A program made the position numbers. A stretch of 22,095 nt of DNA, from positions 1 to 22,095 of the forward strand of contig BTVV01000103.1 in the NCBI GenBank assembly GCA_045863855.1, in the 5' to 3' direction. Positions 15,001-21,000 of this stretch are shown here, piece by piece; within the stretch, counting starts at the first letter, position 1, and every line of letters begins with the position of its first letter. Origin of the DNA: Planctomycetota bacterium (lineage in GTDB: Bacteria > Planctomycetota > SZUA-567 > H5-PLA8).

Positions 15001-18000
15001 CCAGAAAGCGGTGCTCGCGCGCTTCGCGGTACGCCGGACTCTCGTACCAGGCTTTTGCCGCCTCCAGGGTCGGGAATTCCAGGATCACGGCCCCTTCCAT
15101 CGGTGGACCTTCCAGAACCTCCTGGCGGCCGTAGACCGCCAACACCTTCAAGTCGCGGCCCTCGATCGAGGCTCCGGCCTTGGGCGTGTACGTCGCCAGA
15201 TGCTTCGGATCGCGCGTGCGTTCGCGGATAAAGATGGCGTAAGCGGGCATGGGTGGCGCCTCCTGGAGTTCCCCTGACTCTACGACCCCGCCGCGCGTTC
15301 GCCAACAGGCTAGGAGCCGGCCGAGACGCCGGCGTCTGCTCGTTGTGAGGGTTTAATGCAGATTGATTTAAGCGTGCAGGTTGACCCTGTGCGGCGCGTC
15401 CCTCATAATGAGCGGGCCGAAGGAGGAACGATGCGAGCCAAGGTTCAAGCGGCGCTGGACGAGATCCGGCCCTACATTCAAGCCGATGGCGGCGATGTGG
15501 AACTGGTCAAAGTCGAGGACACCGTCGTGACGGTGCGCCTGATGGGCCATTGCGTCGGCTGCTCGTCGTCCACGGTGACTCTGAAGTCGGGCATCGAAAC
15601 GCATCTCAAGAAGCGCGTGCCCGAAGTGACCGAAGTCGTCCAGTCCATGCCCGCCGAGCCGGTGGCGACGCATCCGCCGCCGACGCCGGGGCAAGTGCAG
15701 CCGTTGCAGAGCCCCTTCGCGCCGCCGCCTTCCGCACCCGCGACGAACGCCGCCGTCACCGCCAACCTGCGCGCCGATCACCGCAAAGCGGAAGAAGTGC
15801 TCCAGGAACTCGACGCCCTCGTCGAGGTCTTGCAGGCGCATCCCGTCAACGCCGAGCAGCTTCGCACGCTCCGCCGCATCAACCAGTTTCTCAGCGTCGA
15901 ACTGGCCGCGCACATGCGCCAGGAAGACGAGGTCCTCTTCCCCGCTCTGGTTCCGTTCATCTCCTGGGGCAGCCCGATGTCGATGATGGCCAAAGAGCAC
16001 CGGCTGCTGCACGAGGAACTCGACCAATTCGGCAAGCTGGTCAACGTCTTGAAGCCCGGCGAGGACGGCAAGGAGCTGGCGCGGCTGGGCAAGCGCATCG
16101 CCCAGCGCCTGCGCGACGATTTCTATCAGGAAGAGAACGTGCTCTTCGTCGAAGCCGACGAGTCGCTGGTCGGCCAGCGCGCCGACGCGCTGCGCGAAGC
16201 GATGAGCCGCATCGCTCAGGCCGAAGCCCGAGCGCACTGATTCGCAATCACTTCCGCATGCAAGAAAGCGGGCAGCCCCTTGGGCTGCCCGCTTCCGTTC
16301 CAGCCTCAGCCCGGAGCTTTTCTTAACTCGGATCGGCGATGCGGCCCATAAACAGGATCGCGCCGGACACTTCATCCCGGAGCAGCAACAGGTACGGCTG
16401 ATCGGCGTAGAATTCGGCCGAGATTTCTTCTTCCTTCAGTTCGAATAGGGTCGCGGCGGCCGCGCGGGTGCCCACTTCGTCCATTTCCAGCACGGCTTCG
16501 TGCAATGCGCGGCTTAAAAACAGCTTCCCGTCCGCAACGATGCCCGTGAAATCGGCCCGACCGAGCTTGAACGCGTCGGGCATGCCCAGCACGCCCAGCG
16601 GAGGAATCAGGTCGGCGCGAGCGCGCAGTTTGAGCCGCGGAAGGAGCACGCTGGCCTTTTTCTTCCGCAAGCTCTTCCGCCATGCGTCGAAATCCGCCTG
16701 ATTCAGGCCGGCCTCGACCGCGCCGAGGCCGTGGCGGGCCGCGGGCAGGATGAAATAAGCCGCCACCGTCGCGCCCTTGTAGGGCAACCGCAGAACCTTG
16801 ACCTTCGCGTTCTCGCAGAAGGACACGTCCTCGTGCTTCCACATCATGGGGACCGTGACGCGGTCGCCGGCCTTGCGCTCGAACGCCCGGTCTTCGGTGT
16901 GCTTCTTCTCGAAGGGTTTCGCCCAATCGCCTTTGAAGTAGATGGCATTGACGAGCAGCAGCCGAGTCTCCGCATCGATCTCGCCCTGCCTGAGCATCTC
17001 GGGGATCATGCGCTCGGTCCGTTCGGCGATCCATGCGTTGACGGCCGTGCGCGCGTCCTCCGGTTGCCGGTTGAAGTCCAGCCACTCGGTCGGCGCGCCA
17101 AAATACTGCCGCGTCGCCGCGACATAACGCGGCTCAATCGGCAAGCCCTGCTGCGCCCAGATTCGATTGGCCACGCGCAGCACATACGGCTTGGCCTCGC
17201 CGTCGATGGTGTTCTGCTCGGACAGCAGCGCGGCGTAAGACCCCGCAAGCCGCTCCCCGCCAAAAGGCGCATGCAGCACCTTTCCGATCTGCTCGGCCGT
17301 CGCCCCGCGCGCGCCGGGATGCAGCATGCCCAGCGCCGTGCTGACGCTGTACGGGCTGAAGAAAAGGTTGCCCTCTTGTTGGCGGAACTGCCCGAAGAGG
17401 TCCATCGCGAACGCGTTGCCGGCCCGCGCGAGCGCGTCCTTGTCCGCGGCGTTCAACTTTTCCACCGGAGGCAGCGACGGCTCTTCACCGCGCGTATCGG
17501 CCACCGGCCCGGGGTTCGCGGTCCGTACGTTCGGGTCCGCGCCTTCGCTCCGATTCGAAACGATCAGCGTGCCTAAGGCCATCAGCAGCGCGATCGCAGT
17601 CAGGCTTACCTTCTGCATGGTCGTCCATCCTCCCGTATCGGGCGGCGGGGCCGGAAGCGGCTTACGCGCGCTGTCCAGCAACTCCCGCCAACCCTGTTTT
17701 TGGGAGGCACTCGGCAAAGCGGCCGGCTCGGCGGCTTCGGCGGACGATCCGCCGAAGAGCGCGCCAAGTTGCTCGAACGTAAGGAAGAGACCCAGGACCG
17801 CCAGCCGCCGGCGCAGCGTCTCGAGCCCGCGGTGCGCGCGGGCCTTCGCCGTGCCGACGGGGACGTCGAGCTGCGCGGCCACCTGCGCGTACTCGAGCCC
17901 GCCGAAATAGTGGAGCATCAGCGGCTGGCGCTGTTCGTCGGGCAGGCGGGCCAGTTCGGCCAGCGCGGCATCGCGTTGAGCCTCGTCGGCCGGTTCCTGC

Positions 18001-21000
18001 CCTCCGCGTTCCGCGCCGGCACGCTCGTCGCGAGCTTGGGCGCGTTTACGCGAACGCAGCATCTACAGCGCCGCGTTGCACGCCAGCTTCAGCAGCCAGC
18101 CGCGGGCGGCCGTGTCGGCCTCCGCTTCCGGCGGTTTGAATTGGCCGGCGTGATCGCGCACGAGCAGCAGCGCCTCCTGGGTCGCATCCTCGGCCAGCCC
18201 CTCGTCGCGCAGGATCTGCCGCGCGACGGCGAAGATCTCGCCGCCGTGCCGCTCGACCAGCACCGTCCACGCCTCGGGGTCGCGCCGCTGCGCGAGCCGC
18301 CGGAGCGCTTCGGCCGTACCGAGCGCGAAAGGGGTTTCCACCGGGTGCCTCATCTCGTACCTGACCCAGGAATGCCGCCGAGCCGGAGGGAGTTGCAAAA
18401 ATCCGGATATTTTTCGAACCGGCTCCCTACTTTACGACTTCCAGAACCGCCTTAAGGTTGCGCGCGCGCCAGATGAAGCAGAAGTGCTTTTCCCATAGAT
18501 TCGGCCAAAGCGCATAGTGCACCTTGCCCATCAAATCCCAAAGCCCGCTGCCGAAGGTCAGATCCACCTGCCGGGTTTTCATGCAGCGGTCGGTGTAATG
18601 ATGCTTTTTCGACGTATCGAAAAACTCGAAGCTGCGCCGTGCGAAGTGGCGCGTATGCGTCGGATCTTCCCACGAATTGAGGCTCGAAAAATGGGGCGTC
18701 AGCAGTTCGACGCTCGCACCGTGCCGCGAGACGCGGTGAATCTCGTTCATCACGCCGACCAGATCGTTCAGATGCTCCAGCACGTGGCTGCAGACGATCC
18801 GGTCGAAGCGGTTCTCTTCCAGCGGCCAGGGCAGCTTGTTCAGATCGTGGACGATATCCACCTGCGGGCCGGGCAGGATATCGATACCCACCGCGCCGGG
18901 GGTTTTGGAATTTCCGCAGCCGATATCGAGGATGGAGCCTGCCGGAAGCGTGGACATGGGCGAGAGTGTGCGGAGCGTTCGCATGCTTGTCAAGGCGAGT
19001 CGAGTGCACGAATCTTCGACTGTCCTTGACGCGTTCGCACGGGTGCCCTACACTTCTTGCTTCCCTTCGGCGCACGAAGGCTCAAGGGAAGCCCTGGGAT
19101 CCTGGGATTCCGGCGGCTCCGGTTGGGCATTACCTTTTTGGGGGTGAGCCGACAAATGGCCACCATTGCTGCGAATACGTACAACTTTAAACTCAGCTTC
19201 TCGACGACACTCTGTCCGGAGTGGACGGCGGCGGCGATCATCGACGGCATGCAGTCGTACGGCTTCGAGGGCGTGGAGTTCTGCCTCGGGAAGAGCCACC
19301 TGCACGGCGTGGAACTGGACAGCCCGGCCGATCTGCTTGCCGACGTACGCAAGCAGTTCGACGAAGCCGGCACCGCGATCTCCTGCTTGGCCACGCATAA
19401 CGTGATCTCGCATCCGGAGCACGATACCCGGGTCAAGATCGTCGAAGGCCTCAAGCAGTGCCTGCGCGTGGCCGATCAGTTGGGCGCGCCGTTCGTGCGC
19501 GTCTTCGGCGGCGAAGTCCCGGCCGGCTTCGAAGTCACCGGCGTAGTCGATTACATCGCCGAAAGCTTGGGCGAAGTTGCCGAGTTCGCCGAAAGCCAGA
19601 AGGTCCGCAGCATGATTCTCGTCGAGACCCAGGGGCTGCTCAGCCATTCCAAGTTCATTACCGAAGTCCTCGATCAGGTCTACAGCCCCAAAATCGGCGT
19701 GCTCTGGAATACGCTCAACCCTGTGCGCATGCTGGAGAAAGTCGAACAGACCTACGACCGCATCGGTTCCAACGTGCGGTTCGTGCACCTCGCCGACGGC
19801 CAGTTCAACGAAGACCGCACCAAGATCTCCCTATGCGATCCGGGCGAAGGCATGGTGCCCATGGAGCGCGTGGTGGATCTGCTGCGCGCGGGCCTGTACC
19901 GCGGCTACCTCTCCATCGAGTCGATGCATGCGGAGCCCGATCCGGACGAGTTGCTCCCGAAGTATTCCGGTTATTTGAAACAGATCGCAGGACAACAGGA
20001 AGAGTAATCGGCCGGACCGCGGGAATCAGACCTCCCCGAGTCCTGTTTACAACCTCGCGCCCTTCCCGTAGGGTGATGCCCGGTTCGCCGCGTGGCGAGA
20101 CGTTTATCCGGGCAACCCTGGAGCGTACCAACCCGAGATGAGCACCCCCGTGGCACGCCCGCTGAGCGTGGCCATCGTCGGCGCCGGCCCCAGCGGCTTT
20201 TACGCTGCCGAAGCGCTGCTCGCATCGGGCCGCGAAGTCCGCTGCGATGTCTTCGACCGCCTCCCCACACCCTACGGGCTCGTGCGCGGCGGCGTGGCGC
20301 CCGATCACCAAAACATCAAGAAGGTCGTGGCGCTGTACGAGAAGATTGCGCGCAAATCCGGCTTCCGCTTTTTCGGCAACGTCCGCCTGGGCCGCGACCT
20401 GCAGACCGCCGACCTCTTCGCCGCTTACGACGCCGTCGTCTACGCCGTCGGCAACGAAGACGACCGCCCGTTGGGCATTCCCGGCGAAGAACTGGCCGGG
20501 AGCCATTCGGCCACCGAATTCGTCTTCTGGTACAACGGGCATCCCGACTACAAGCACCTGCGCTTCGACCTGAACGTCGAGAACGCCGTGGTGGTCGGCA
20601 TCGGCAACGTGGCGATGGACGTCGCCCGCGTGCTCGCGCAAGATCCCGAAGACCTCGCCAAGACCGATATGCCGCGCTACGCCGTCGATGCGCTTCGCGC
20701 AGCCACGAAACTCAAACGTATTTACGTCCTGGGGCGCCGCGGCCCCGCGCAGGCGGCCTTCACGCCCAAGGAAATCAAGGAATTGGGCGAACTGAAGCAC
20801 GCCGACTTGCTCTTCGAGCCCAACGAAGCCGCTCTCGATCCGCTCAGCGCCGCGTGGCTCGAGCAGTCCAAGGATCCCAACGCGCTCAAGAACATGGAGT
20901 ACGTGCGCGAACACGCCCACGACGCGGCCGAAGGCAAGCCGCGGCGGATCCACATGCGCTTTCTGGTCTCGCCCACCGAATTTGTGGGCGATCCCGACGG

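What a model noticed while it worked through the whole genome (the two positions that open the first line are those of the whole stretch)
16323..18353. ECF sigma factor fused through one membrane helix to a periplasmic inhibitory serpin
Genes g04149+g04148 together encode an ECF sigma factor (regions 2 and 4), a linker, one transmembrane helix and a full-length serpin with a canonical inhibitory hinge. The same 670-725-aa fusion is intact in at least 9 other Planctomycetota proteins. Boldest reading: a one-protein protease sensor, in which attack of an extracytoplasmic protease on the serpin's reactive-centre loop (suicide-substrate trapping or loop insertion) releases or activates the tethered sigma domain. 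That would be a new kind of transmembrane signalling and the first signalling role for a bacterial serpin.
Evidence so far: Pfam table: g04149 Sigma70_r2; g04148 Sigma70_r4_2 (32-83) + Serpin (215-578, 1.4e-103). The two gene calls are contiguous and in frame, separated by one TAG; the 90%-identical ortholog P0001 (672 aa) has Gln there. Call 49: of 245 hits, 9 listed proteins of 672-725 aa carry PF04542 + PF08281/PF04545 + PF00079 on one chain (31-90% identity, 94-100% coverage). Alignment A1: invariant serpin hinge E-x-G-T-x-A-A-A-x-T, and a conserved linker motif W-R-x-L-L-x-S-x-R-x-P before the hydrophobic helix. Paper searches found no paper with serpin together with ECF sigma or anti-sigma. 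The 2021 ECF re-classification (PMC7826278, term search of the main text, call 130) has 0 occurrences of serpin. Eight [...]
(Added by a program. Inside this text positions count along the whole contig: contig position 1 is position 1 of the stretch shown here. "Call 12" and the like, gene names such as g00115 and contig names such as C1 are that model's own, and its searches are not shown. The text may have been shortened before it was handed on; [...] marks where a part breaks off. The agent that wrote the report below was given it as the finding of a first reader that could run no searches.)

Follow-up and report, generated by a model that had tools for sequence, protein, structure and literature searches.

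The report
Membrane-tethered sigma factor fused to serpin
One gene joins a stress-type sigma factor, a self-inhibiting linker and a membrane helix to an outward-facing protease-trapping serpin, which suggests a one-protein protease alarm, but this particular copy is cut by a recent stop-codon mutation.

Summary
On the minus strand, 16323-18353 is one frame: ECF sigma regions 2 and 4, a 60-residue linker, one strong membrane helix, a disordered spacer and a full-length serpin with an inhibitory-type hinge. A single TAG at 18063-18065 breaks it.

The TAG is a private allele. Contigs from three other studies read CAG there, and in two of them it is the only difference over 2.3 kb.

The fusion is a real, recurrent family:
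- 12 copies in 8 of 400 other Planctomycetota genomes sampled.
- 28 further 50%-identity clusters among the best 150 representatives.
- The sigma tree rejects a single origin (AU p = 0.0004).

New here:
- The linker is predicted to dock back on sigma region 2 like an anti-sigma domain (ipSAE 0.71, best control 0.02).
- All 12 genomic copies keep a Shine-Dalgarno motif and an ATG just before the membrane helix. A separate signal-peptide serpin is therefore probably made from the same gene.

Closest known are fused sigma/anti-sigma proteins (IutY, ECF52, ECF57) and the lysozyme receptor RsiV. I found no paper on serpin fusions. This scan noted the same family earlier on other DNA (e1-4860817). 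The signalling mechanism remains inference.

The parts
18371..18396 (-). Conserved upstream motif GCAAC-N..-CGGCGGCATT, ending 17 nt before the start codon. Candidate promoter of the gene itself.
   Evidence: the core is kept in 4 orthologous upstream regions (G000, G066, G313a, G205a); this is the only site in the 6.9-Mb genome. Its promoter function is not shown.
18066..18353 (-). Sigma region 2 (96 codons), from the ATG at 18353.
   Evidence: Sigma70_r2 4e-07; 6 synonymous and 0 non-synonymous codon differences from the G066 ortholog. The start MRH.VETP is shared with P0004.
18063..18065 (-). In-frame TAG (CAG, Gln, in relatives). A nonsense allele private to the probable source sample.
   Evidence: the plus-strand base at 18065 reads A in run X1 only, and G in X2, X3 and X5.
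17814..17969 (-). Sigma region 4.
   Evidence: Sigma70_r4_2 4.1e-14, residues 32-83 of the 579-aa ORF.
17610..17789 (-). 60-residue linker with a weakly hydrophobic helix H1 and the W-R-x-L-L-x-S helix. Predicted anti-sigma-like element that docks on sigma2 and sigma4.
   Evidence: ipSAE 0.71 against a best control of 0.02. Linker residues 214-232 touch sigma2 residues 22-37 and 51-64; the helix at 216-227 has pLDDT about 85; the motif is conserved in the window's sigma clade.
17629..17633 (-). Internal Shine-Dalgarno-like GGAGG, 10 nt before the internal ATG.
   Evidence: 12 of 12 genomic fusion copies have GGAG/GAGG 5-17 nt before this ATG, encoded by different residues; the background at internal ATGs is 345/10675 (3.2%); 34% of first start codons in long coding-like frames have it.
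17616..17618 (-). Internal ATG (Met246 of the read-through protein). Probable start of a 431-aa signal-peptide serpin (16323-17618).
   Evidence: The Met is kept in nearly all fusions.
17553..17609 (-). Transmembrane helix, which is the signal-peptide core of the short product (VSLTAIALLMALGTLIVSN).
   Evidence: Kyte-Doolittle 19-residue mean 1.94; all 29 representatives have such a segment (1.8 or more) 50-78 residues after sigma4.
17421..17552 (-). Disordered extracytoplasmic spacer between the helix and the serpin. Candidate site-1 cleavage region.
   Evidence: pLDDT below 50 for residues 238-290; spacer median 39 residues (range 26-61) in 29 representatives.
16329..17420 (-). Full-length serpin domain.
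   Evidence: 5.4e-103; the only serpin in the genome; the best solved relative is 8gxv_A (4.5e-67).
16410..16478 (-). Serpin hinge and reactive-centre loop (EVGTRAAAAT LFELKEE|EISAE).
   Evidence: an inhibitory-type hinge in 28 of 28 representatives that have a C-terminus. The distal loop is hypervariable. P1 = Glu642 only by the 17-residue rule.
16323..16325 (-). Stop codon (TAA) of the fusion gene.

Best explanation
The locus encodes a single-chain, membrane-spanning ECF sigma factor of the 'sigma with fused regulatory extension' kind.

Anatomy:
- Inside the cell: sigma regions 2 and 4, followed by a 60-residue linker that folds back on them like an anti-sigma domain and keeps the sigma off.
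- One transmembrane helix.
- Outside the cell: a roughly 40-residue floppy spacer and an inhibitory-type serpin.

A conserved internal ribosome-binding site and ATG just before the helix probably also produce a free serpin with a signal peptide from the same gene.

Most likely working (inferred, not shown): the serpin is the protease-recognition module of a protease-responsive switch. When extracytoplasmic proteases attack or exhaust the serpin, the outside part is cut down. A site-2 protease (an RseP homologue is in the genome) then cuts in the membrane. The sigma is released, as in IutY, and probably drives its own gene and so more serpin.

In this assembly a C-to-T change (CAG to TAG) at the region 2 / region 4 junction stops the full-length form. 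The internal start and the serpin frame are untouched, so this population probably still makes the serpin but not the tethered sigma.
For: - Domains and frame. P0002 reaches the TIGR02937 ECF superfamily cut-off (64 bits against 42.9).
- Purifying selection: 104 synonymous against 57 non-synonymous codon differences from the G066 ortholog, the TAG counted among the 57; 6 against 0 in region 2; no indel.
- Private TAG: X1, the probable source, reads A at 18065. X2, X3 and X5, from three other studies, read G. In X2 and X3 this is the only difference over 16200-18500.
- Recurrence: 12 copies in 8 of 400 other Planctomycetota genomes, and 28 further 50%-identity representatives.
- More than one origin, or repeated domain exchange: all 17 fusions as one clade in the sigma-module tree is rejected (AU p = 0.00044, lnL -198). 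The 11 fusions of the window's own type fit one clade in the serpin tree (p-AU 0.588).
- Same scaffold with other outer domains: WD40, HEAT, LRR, AhpC-TSA, STN. The own genome adds beta-helix/NosD, ankyrin and Metallophos.
- Anti-sigma-like linker: ipSAE 0.71, best of 3 controls 0.02; the runs agree in at least 66% of contacts; partner pLDDT at least 61. That mark was reached by 116 of 157 solved complexes and 2 of 215 mismatched pairs.
- Topology:
  - One strong hydrophobic segment in 29 of 29 representatives; a second segment at or above the 1.6 cut-off, right after sigma4, in only 3 of 29.
  - More Lys+Arg on the N-side flank in 18, on the C-side in 4, ties in 7.
  - Of the seven nearest stand-alone serpins read (P0009-P0012, P0014, P0015, P0017), most begin with a hydrophobic signal-peptide-like N-terminus, one of them lipoprotein-like; P0012 does not (judged by eye).
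- Inhibitory-type hinge in 28 of 28.
- Internal start.
- No anti-sigma gene next to any copy.
- An RseP-type M50 protease is in the genome (188 bits).
- Precedent: IutY is released by Prc and RseP (abstract of PMC5411451; passages of PMC8999054).
Against: - No step of the signalling was tested.
- No protease gene is conserved beside any copy, and no regulon was found: the upstream motif occurs once in the genome.
- Serpin trapping does not by itself shorten the outer domain, so a site-1 cut has to be assumed.
- The complex prediction used a chain cut out of its own polypeptide. It may also pass by likeness to solved sigma/anti-sigma complexes. H1 lying near sigma4 is partly trivial.
- In the window's own subclade the charge bias across the helix is reversed (1 against 2 Lys+Arg), and H1 is borderline hydrophobic (1.45-1.56).
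- The predicted P1 (Glu) rests only on a counting rule.
- One family member (P0112) has a degenerate hinge.
- The internal start is inferred from sequence. It could mean that the free serpin is the main product.
- This copy carries a stop codon.
Confidence: 0.5

Rival explanations
1. The serpin is simply a membrane-anchored and secreted protease inhibitor. The sigma module answers to some other cue (redox through the Cys pair seen in many relatives, partner proteins, phosphorylation) or is only held at the membrane. Protease attack does not signal.
For: The same sigma-linker-helix scaffold carries many unrelated outer domains, so the outer domain need not be a sensor of its own ligand. A conserved internal start would give free serpin independently of the sigma. 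No protease or regulon is linked. 12 of 29 representatives keep the sigma2/sigma4 cysteine pair that the ECF57 description links to redox control (supplement of PMC7826278).
Against: The serpin was joined to this scaffold more than once, or kept through repeated exchanges. The inhibitory hinge is kept in 28 of 28. An outer domain fused to a sigma/anti-sigma unit is the sensor in the known cases (IutY, RsiV; abstracts and listings). The window's clade lacks the Cys pair.
Confidence: 0.22
2. Two membrane helices (H1 right after sigma4, plus the strong helix) place the serpin in the cytoplasm. It would then act on cytoplasmic proteases, and the short loop between the helices would be the only outside part.
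For: The ECF57 description gives about 2 predicted transmembrane helices in the extension (supplement of PMC7826278). H1 scores 1.3-1.8 in the window's clade.
Against: H1 reaches 1.6 in only 3 of 29 representatives, and is below 1.2 in two genomic fusions. H1 is predicted to pack on sigma4. Most of the nearest stand-alone serpins read have signal-peptide-like N-termini. Charge bias favours N-in/C-out in 18 against 4. The internal start gives a classic n-h-c signal-peptide layout.
Confidence: 0.06
3. The TAG is not biological. It is a read or consensus error in the source sample, and the organism has the intact gene.
For: It is a single transition. Three other runs, two of them with otherwise identical sequence, read CAG. 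Depth in X1 is only about 11, and only contigs, not reads, could be examined.
Against: An assembly of X1 made independently (Logan contig, 15,327 bases, 0 differences over the stretch) also carries the A. Illumina consensus errors at depth 11 are rare (own knowledge). A second family member (G313b) is also broken between region 2 and region 4.
Confidence: 0.15

Closest known systems
IutY of Pseudomonas putida (ECF243), a sigma/anti-sigma hybrid
   Same: One polypeptide with a cytoplasmic ECF sigma domain, one membrane span and a periplasmic regulatory domain. It is released by sequential proteolysis (Prc, then RseP) after the outer part is trimmed to about 50 residues (abstract of PMC5411451; passages of PMC8999054).
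   Different: IutY's outer domain is a FecR-type anti-sigma domain that listens to a TonB-dependent receptor. Here it is a serpin, there is no receptor gene nearby, and a conserved internal start is present.
ECF57, the planctomycetal ECF group with a C-terminal extension
   Same: Planctomycetes only. A long C-terminal extension with membrane helices and variable protein-binding domains (WD40). Proposed activation by release from the membrane (supplement of PMC7826278). WD40 relatives of this scaffold exist (P0122).
   Different: ECF57 is described with a fully conserved sigma2/sigma4 cysteine pair and about 2 helices. The window and P0002 have Ala and Val at those positions, and only 12 of 29 representatives have both cysteines. 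No serpin is mentioned: 0 hits in the main text and in the stored part of the supplement. Group assignment by the ECF group models could not be run.
ECF52 (SCO4117) and ECF48/ECF53 of Actinobacteria
   Same: Sigma fused to a membrane-spanning anti-sigma-like extension with an outer sensory domain. Proteolytic activation is proposed (passages of PMC8999054).
   Different: Those have a zinc-finger anti-sigma domain and a proline-rich or carbohydrate-binding outer part. Pfam finds no zinc finger or other anti-sigma family in the linker here.
SigV-RsiV (lysozyme receptor anti-sigma) and SigP-RsiP
   Same: The outer domain of the anti-sigma directly binds a hostile enzyme or drug, and binding triggers site-1 cleavage (by signal peptidase) and then site-2 cleavage. 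Seen as titles and abstract starts of PMC4183432, PMC5014341, PMC6066255 and PMC8844934 in the listing.
   Different: That is a two-protein system in Firmicutes, and the ligand is lysozyme or a beta-lactam. Here sigma and anti-sigma are fused, and the binder is a suicide-substrate protease inhibitor.
Secreted bacterial serpins (closest solved: 8gxv_A 'Proteinase inhibitor I4 serpin')
   Same: Full-length serpin fold with an inhibitory-type hinge. Most of the nearest stand-alone relatives read look secreted.
   Different: It is tethered through a membrane helix to a sigma factor, and it is the only serpin in this genome.

Membership tests
Serpin (Pfam PF00079, MEROPS I4) | Full-length match to the serpin profile | tested here: met
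   5.4e-103, profile positions 3-370 of 370; 193 solved serpin sequences at E <= 1e-20, best 4.5e-67.
Serpin (Pfam PF00079, MEROPS I4) | Inhibitory-type hinge (P17 Glu, P15 Gly, P14 Thr/Ser, small residues at P12-P9) and a reactive-centre loop of normal length | tested here: met
   Window hinge EVGTRAAAAT. 28 of 28 representatives with a C-terminus have this type. Loop length is 22 in the window, against 21-29 in 105 stand-alone serpins.
Serpin (Pfam PF00079, MEROPS I4) | Forms a covalent, SDS-stable complex with a target protease | not testable with these tools
   Needs protein biochemistry. The AF2 model has the loop drawn as an inserted strand, which is not evidence of activity.
ECF (group 4) sigma-70 factors | Regions 2 and 4 only, with a match to the ECF superfamily model | tested here: met
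   Sigma70_r2 and Sigma70_r4_2. TIGR02937 64 bits (cut-off 42.9) for the intact ortholog P0002. No specific subfamily reached its cut-off.
ECF57 (Casas-Pastor 2021) | Planctomycetes, with a C-terminal extension that has membrane helices | tested here: met
   Sources name P0002 and P0004 as Planctomycetes/Planctomycetota. Extension with a helix.
ECF57 (Casas-Pastor 2021) | Completely conserved cysteine pair, one in sigma2 and one in sigma4 | tested here: not met
   The window and P0002 have Ala and Val. Both cysteines are present in 12 of 29 representatives.
ECF57 (Casas-Pastor 2021) | Assignment by the ECF group/subgroup HMMs | not testable with these tools
   No ECF-group models are held. The supplement was cut when stored.
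IutY-type sigma/anti-sigma hybrid (ECF243) | Sigma domain, one membrane span and an outer regulatory domain on one chain | tested here: met
IutY-type sigma/anti-sigma hybrid (ECF243) | FecR-type outer domain coupled to a TonB-dependent receptor | tested here: not met
   Pfam finds only Serpin after the helix. No receptor gene in the neighbourhood.
IutY-type sigma/anti-sigma hybrid (ECF243) | Release by site-1 and site-2 proteolysis | not testable with these tools
   Only the presence of an M50 (RseP-type) protease gene was shown.
Anti-sigma domain (fused) | A segment after sigma4 binds sigma2/sigma4 surfaces | tested here: inconclusive
   Prediction only: ipSAE 0.71 against 0.02. No Pfam anti-sigma family matches the linker.

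The most novel reading that the evidence does not exclude
A one-gene protease-load homeostat. The gene would make two proteins: a free secreted serpin from a conserved internal start, and a membrane-tethered sigma-serpin.

The free serpin mops up extracytoplasmic proteases. When attack on the tethered serpin's reactive-centre loop (covalent trapping or loop insertion), or exhaustion of the serpin pool, exposes the floppy spacer, the outer part is clipped. An RseP-type protease then frees the sigma, and the sigma switches its own gene on, so more inhibitor is made.

This would be the first signalling role for a bacterial serpin and the first sigma switch triggered by a suicide-substrate reaction. 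It would have been assembled independently several times in Planctomycetota. According to earlier notes of this scan, Clostridia have it as two-gene versions.
Probability: 0.25. Interest if true: 0.85.

Novelty: new variant of a known kind. Interest (0 to 1): 0.62.

Why it matters
ECF sigma factors are the third great pillar of bacterial signalling, and for most of them the sensed signal is unknown. Here the sensor domain is a protein of well-understood chemistry, which makes a clear prediction: proteases are the signal.

The idea can be tested with standard assays:
- complex formation with proteases;
- topology reporters;
- a reporter on the gene's own promoter;
- dependence on the site-2 protease.

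If confirmed, it would give bacterial serpins a signalling role. It would show a suicide-inhibitor reaction used as a transmembrane trigger. It would add a possible case of two products from one gene through an internal start.

The family is not rare (28 further 50%-identity clusters), and it appears to have arisen more than once, which argues for selection on the combination. For this particular window the value is lower, because the copy is a nonsense allele.

Tried and rejected
- **TAG as a recoded codon.** Rejected. The neighbouring gene ends in TAG, and near-identical populations have CAG.
- **P0003 (431-aa serpin-only call) as evidence of a separate serpin gene.** Rejected. It sits on an 1830-base contig that ends at window position 17793.
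- **The Met before the helix as a relic of the serpin's own start only.** Weakened. Two non-serpin scaffold relatives (P0115, P0116) also have M-x-I-K there. The own genome's non-serpin extension genes lack the SD motif (L071 is ambiguous).
- **Serpin tree showing the window's clade apart from the other fusions of its type.** Rejected after the AU test. The constrained tree is 13.9 lnL units better.
- **Conserved partner genes.** NifU-hemerythrin, a methyltransferase, a xylose-isomerase-like gene and Pyr_redox_2 are syntenic only among orthologs of the window's family. Paralogous and distant copies have other neighbours, and none has a protease or an anti-sigma gene.
- **Regulon search with the upstream motif.** One site in the genome, the gene's own.
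- **18 other long open frames upstream of planctomycetal serpins.** No sigma domain. These are probably just open frames in GC-rich DNA.
- **NCBIfam.** No specific sigma subfamily.
- **Contacts in the AF2 full-length model.** Could not be read, because no coordinates are handed out.
- **RNA runs X17-X20.** They hold small shares of the stretch (0.05-0.14).
- **Paper searches that gave nothing relevant by title.** serpin + 'ECF sigma' (3 papers); serpin + Planctomycetes (13); serpin + anti-sigma (18).

Full report
**1. What is in the sequence**

On the minus strand, an ATG at 18353 opens a 96-codon frame that ends in TAG (18065-18063). The very next codon is ATG (18062-18060), which opens a 579-codon frame ending at 16323.

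Pfam:
- The first piece matches Sigma70_r2 (4e-07, above the cut-off).
- The second piece matches Sigma70_r4_2 (residues 32-83, 4.1e-14) and a complete Serpin domain (215-578, 5.4e-103, profile positions 3-370 of 370).

Read through the TAG, the protein has 676 residues.

The window is a whole 22,095-base contig (C103) of a metagenome-assembled genome of 6.93 Mb in 287 contigs, 93.9% complete. This is the only serpin in that genome. About 38 other ECF-type sigma matches are present.

**2. The stop codon**

The same-genus ortholog (P0002, genome G066) aligns over 2019 nt without any indel. The only disruptive difference is CAG to TAG.

Codon differences, synonymous / non-synonymous:

| Part | Syn | Non-syn |
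|---|---|---|
| Sigma region 2 | 6 | 0 |
| Region 4 + linker (the TAG counted here) | 22 | 10 |
| Helix + spacer | 10 | 5 |
| Serpin | 66 | 42 |

I laid contigs of four public runs on 16200-18500.
- X1 (a bioreactor sample, probably the source, 0 differences) reads A at plus-strand position 18065.
- X2 (aquaculture), X3 (sediment) and X5 (a bioreactor of another study) read G, which gives CAG.
- In X2 and X3 this is the only difference in the whole stretch.

The TAG is therefore a very recent allele private to one population, or less likely an error in that sample's reads. Only contigs could be laid, so allele frequency is unknown.

TAG is a normal stop here: the upstream methyltransferase gene ends with it.

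A paralog in genome G313 (P0006) is also broken between region 2 and region 4, by a frameshift. That genome is in few contigs, and an assembly error is possible.

**3. The fusion is a real family**

- A first protein search gave 6 sigma+serpin proteins among 110 hits. A search with the sigma+linker part alone gave two more.
- A six-frame search of 400 other Planctomycetota genomes gave full-length matches in 8 of them (G066, G313 x2, G268 x2, G205 x2, G123, G009 x2, G091, G355). That is 12 copies in four GTDB families.
- Pfam confirmed sigma and serpin domains on one open frame for 11 of them. The contig-truncated G355 copy rests on alignment alone. Twenty other serpin frames had no sigma domain.
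- An exhaustive search of 1.84 billion 50%-identity representatives gave 28 further proteins spanning sigma and serpin among the best 150. Counting P0002, Serpin matched 29/29, Sigma70_r4_2 29/29 and Sigma70_r2 28/29.

**4. One origin or several**

In a tree of the sigma+linker module (39 rows), the 12 fusions of the window's type form one supported clade. Five others (G123, G009a, G009b, P0007, P0008) lie among scaffolds that carry other outer domains.

Forcing all 17 fusions together is rejected (lnL -198, p-AU 0.00044).

In the serpin tree (120 rows) the quick search scattered the fusions. Holding the 11 fusions of the window's type together gives a better tree (lnL +13.9, p-AU 0.588).

My reading is one old fusion in the window's lineage, plus at least one or two further recruitments of a serpin to the same kind of scaffold (or repeated domain exchange).

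**5. The scaffold**

The nearest relatives of the sigma+linker part that lack a serpin carry WD40, HEAT, LRR, AhpC-TSA or STN domains at the same place.

The window's own genome has 8 more ECF sigmas with long C-terminal extensions. Their outer domains include beta-helix/NosD, ankyrin and Metallophos, and others have no Pfam match. Most have one strong hydrophobic segment 50-70 residues after region 4.

The serpin fusion is thus one member of a modular class: sigma, linker, helix, variable outer domain.

**6. The linker**

The AF2 model of the read-through protein (15-row alignment, mean pLDDT 76) shows:
- sigma2 (13-115) and sigma4 (123-186);
- a short helix (193-199);
- a confident helix at 216-227 that carries the conserved W-R-x-L-L motif;
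- a low-confidence helix at 245-261 and a disordered stretch to about 300;
- then the serpin.

The reactive-centre loop is drawn as an inserted strand.

A complex test of the sigma core (1-184 of P0002) against the linker (185-244), each with a 14-row alignment, gave ipSAE 0.71 with a best control of 0.02. The runs agreed in at least 66% of contacts, and partner pLDDT was at least 61. That mark was reached by 116 of 157 solved complexes and 2 of 215 mismatched pairs.
- The W-R-x-L-L helix (214-232) touches sigma2 residues 22-37 and 51-64.
- H1 (187-197) touches sigma4.

The contacted sigma2 helices are those that ECF sigmas use to bind RNA polymerase and that anti-sigma domains cover (own knowledge).

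The model supports binding but does not show it. The pass may reflect likeness to solved sigma/anti-sigma complexes, and the two chains are naturally joined.

**7. Topology**

- All 29 representatives have one strong hydrophobic segment (Kyte-Doolittle 19-residue mean 1.8 or more) 50-78 residues after region 4. Only 3 also have a segment at or above the 1.6 cut-off directly after region 4, and two more have a weak segment further into the linker.
- Lys+Arg in the 15 residues flanking the helix: more on the N side in 18, more on the C side in 4, ties in 7. The window's own subclade is among the exceptions.
- Of the seven nearest stand-alone serpins I read, most begin with a hydrophobic signal-peptide-like N-terminus, and one looks like a lipoprotein. 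P0012 does not (judged by eye).

Together with section 6, a single span with the serpin outside is the best reading. A two-helix topology with a cytoplasmic serpin is not excluded. The ECF57 description counts about 2 helices.

**8. The serpin**

- The hinge is of the inhibitory type in 28 of 28 representatives that have a C-terminus, and in 14 of 16 fusions looked at in detail. P0112 is clearly degenerate and G123 is atypical.
- The distal loop is hypervariable, with a length of 21-28 against 21-29 in 105 stand-alone serpins.
- By the 17-residue rule, P1 in the window is Glu642 (LKEE|EIS). That rule is only a guide.
- The best solved relative is 8gxv_A, 'Proteinase inhibitor I4 serpin' (4.5e-67), followed by human SERPINB1 and PAI-2.

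**9. An internal start**

A Met followed by Lys sits just before the helix in nearly all fusions.

At the DNA level, 12 of 12 genomic copies have GGAG or GAGG 5-17 nt before that ATG, and 11 of 12 have GGAGG or AGGAG. The motif is coded by different residues: Gly-Gly, Arg-Arg as AGG-AGG in G313b, Glu-Gly, Arg-Gly, Lys-Glu-Glu, Glu-Asp.

| Position class in the own genome | GGAG/GAGG | 5-mer (GGAGG/AGGAG) |
|---|---|---|
| Internal ATGs in long coding-like frames | 345 of 10,675 (3.2%) | 0.7% |
| First ATG/GTG of long coding-like frames | 685 of 2,028 (34%) | 15.7% |

The copies are related, so these are not 12 independent trials. Keeping the nucleotides while the residues change still points to selection on the motif.

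The own genome's non-serpin extension genes lack the motif (L071 is ambiguous).

The product from 17618 would be a 431-residue serpin with an n-h-c signal-peptide layout. Whether it is cleaved is not known, because the -3/-1 positions are not classic. In the TAG allele this product is untouched.

I tested it here on this family's DNA.

**10. Surroundings**

Orthologous loci (window, G313a, G205a, and partly G268b) share a NifU-hemerythrin gene, a small methyltransferase, a xylose-isomerase-like gene and a Pyr_redox_2 gene. Other copies have unrelated neighbours. No copy has a protease or an anti-sigma gene next to it.

A motif GCAAC-N..-CGGCGGCATT, 17 nt before the start, is kept in four orthologs. 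It occurs only once in the genome.

An RseP-type M50 protease gene is present elsewhere in the genome.

**11. How it most likely works**

Shown or predicted from sequence:
- the domain order;
- the conserved inhibitory hinge;
- a single strong helix;
- the disordered spacer (median 39 residues);
- the linker-sigma docking (prediction);
- the internal SD and ATG.

Inferred:
- The linker holds the sigma inactive at the membrane.
- Extracytoplasmic proteases are the signal.
- After attack on, or exhaustion of, the serpin, the outer part is trimmed in the spacer.
- The M50 protease cuts the helix and the sigma is freed.
- It then transcribes its own gene, and so more serpin.

The free serpin from the internal start would set the threshold.

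The weak point is the site-1 step. Serpin trapping does not by itself remove the outer domain.

**12. What is known**

- IutY of Pseudomonas putida is described as the only experimentally characterised sigma fused to its membrane anti-sigma. It is released by Prc and RseP once the periplasmic part is down to about 50 residues (abstract of PMC5411451; passages of the 2022 review PMC8999054).
- The same review lists ECF48/52/53 as predicted to be proteolysis-regulated and ECF57 as regulated by protein interaction. It has 0 occurrences of 'serpin'.
- The 2021 reclassification (PMC7826278) has 0 occurrences of 'serpin' or 'PF00079' in the main text and in the stored part of its supplement, which was cut when stored.
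- That supplement describes ECF57 as a planctomycetal group with a membrane-spanning extension, WD40 in some members and a fully conserved cysteine pair. The window lacks that pair.
- RsiV, a lysozyme-binding anti-sigma cleaved by signal peptidase, is the closest functional parallel (titles and abstract starts in the listing).
- Full-text searches for serpin with 'ECF sigma', 'anti-sigma' or 'Planctomycetes' gave 3, 18 and 13 papers, none relevant by title.
- Jogler 2012 and Wiegand 2020 were not read. bioRxiv supplements are closed.

**13. Earlier notes of this scan**

- The same one-chain family in another planctomycete (e1-4860817).
- Several two-gene versions (an ECF sigma plus an anti-sigma with a serpin ectodomain) in Clostridia (e1-957879, e1-5082403, e1-2159923, e1-2112164, e1-2363808).
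- One fused form in Clostridia (e1-3774904).

I did not test the Clostridia claims.

**14. Verdict**

- The architecture is real, recurrent and undescribed in the papers I could search.
- It is a new variant (serpin ectodomain, internal start) of a known kind (sigma fused to a membrane-spanning anti-sigma extension).
- The protease-sensing mechanism is attractive and testable, but unproven.
- This window's copy is a nonsense allele.

Noticed in passing
window 15356-16240 (+): A NifU-like domain fused to a hemerythrin (HHE) domain on one 294-aa protein, convergent with the fusion gene. The same fused gene sits beside the sigma-serpin orthologs in G313, G205 and G268.
   Followed up: partly
L040 (G313:C3) about 11166-11473 (-): The second sigma-serpin paralog of genome G313 (P0006) has sigma region 2 in a different frame from the rest. 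That is a frameshift between region 2 and region 4, near where the window has its TAG. It may be a real break or an assembly error.
   Followed up: partly
G000 contigs C128, C83, C64, C105, C182, C1, C189, C4 (loci L066-L073): Eight further ECF sigma factors in the window's genome carry long C-terminal extensions: beta-helix/NosD, ankyrin repeats, calcineurin-like phosphoesterase, and five with no Pfam match. Most have one membrane helix 50-70 residues after region 4.
   Followed up: partly
P0112 (705 aa, metagenome protein): A member of the window's fusion clade has a degenerate hinge (EKGVEPTAAK) and several odd cysteines in conserved serpin motifs. Its 51%-identity relative P0113 keeps the canonical hinge. 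It may be a non-inhibitory or decaying copy.
   Followed up: no
L047 (G205:C151) 1894-3273 (-) next to 2-1801 (-): A stand-alone serpin gene lies directly upstream of a contig-truncated sigma-serpin fusion on the same strand.
   Followed up: no
L041 (G268:C12) 478-2652 and 7778-9904 (+): Two sigma-serpin paralogs lie 5 kb apart on one contig, separated by a GntR/periplasmic-binding regulator and a GH123-like gene.
   Followed up: no
window 14948-14951 against L038 7112-7704: The same-genus genome G066 has about 590 extra bases between the genes that flank window position 14950. Otherwise the two are collinear at 93-94% identity over 14 kb.
   Followed up: no
window 10638-11693 (+): A protein that joins a cyclic-nucleotide-binding domain to DUF4388.
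   Followed up: no
representatives P0126, P0128, P0129, P0134, P0165: Long proteins (775-1375 aa) with two or three serpin-matching stretches, or with a serpin at the end of a long unknown N-terminal part. These are other multi-domain serpin architectures in the same searches.
   Followed up: no
frames L048, L049, L050, L051, L061, L062 and others: Many planctomycetal serpin genes sit at the end of open frames of 650-780 codons with no Pfam domain in the first 300. They are probably GC-rich open frames rather than protein. Unknown N-terminal domains were not excluded.
   Followed up: no
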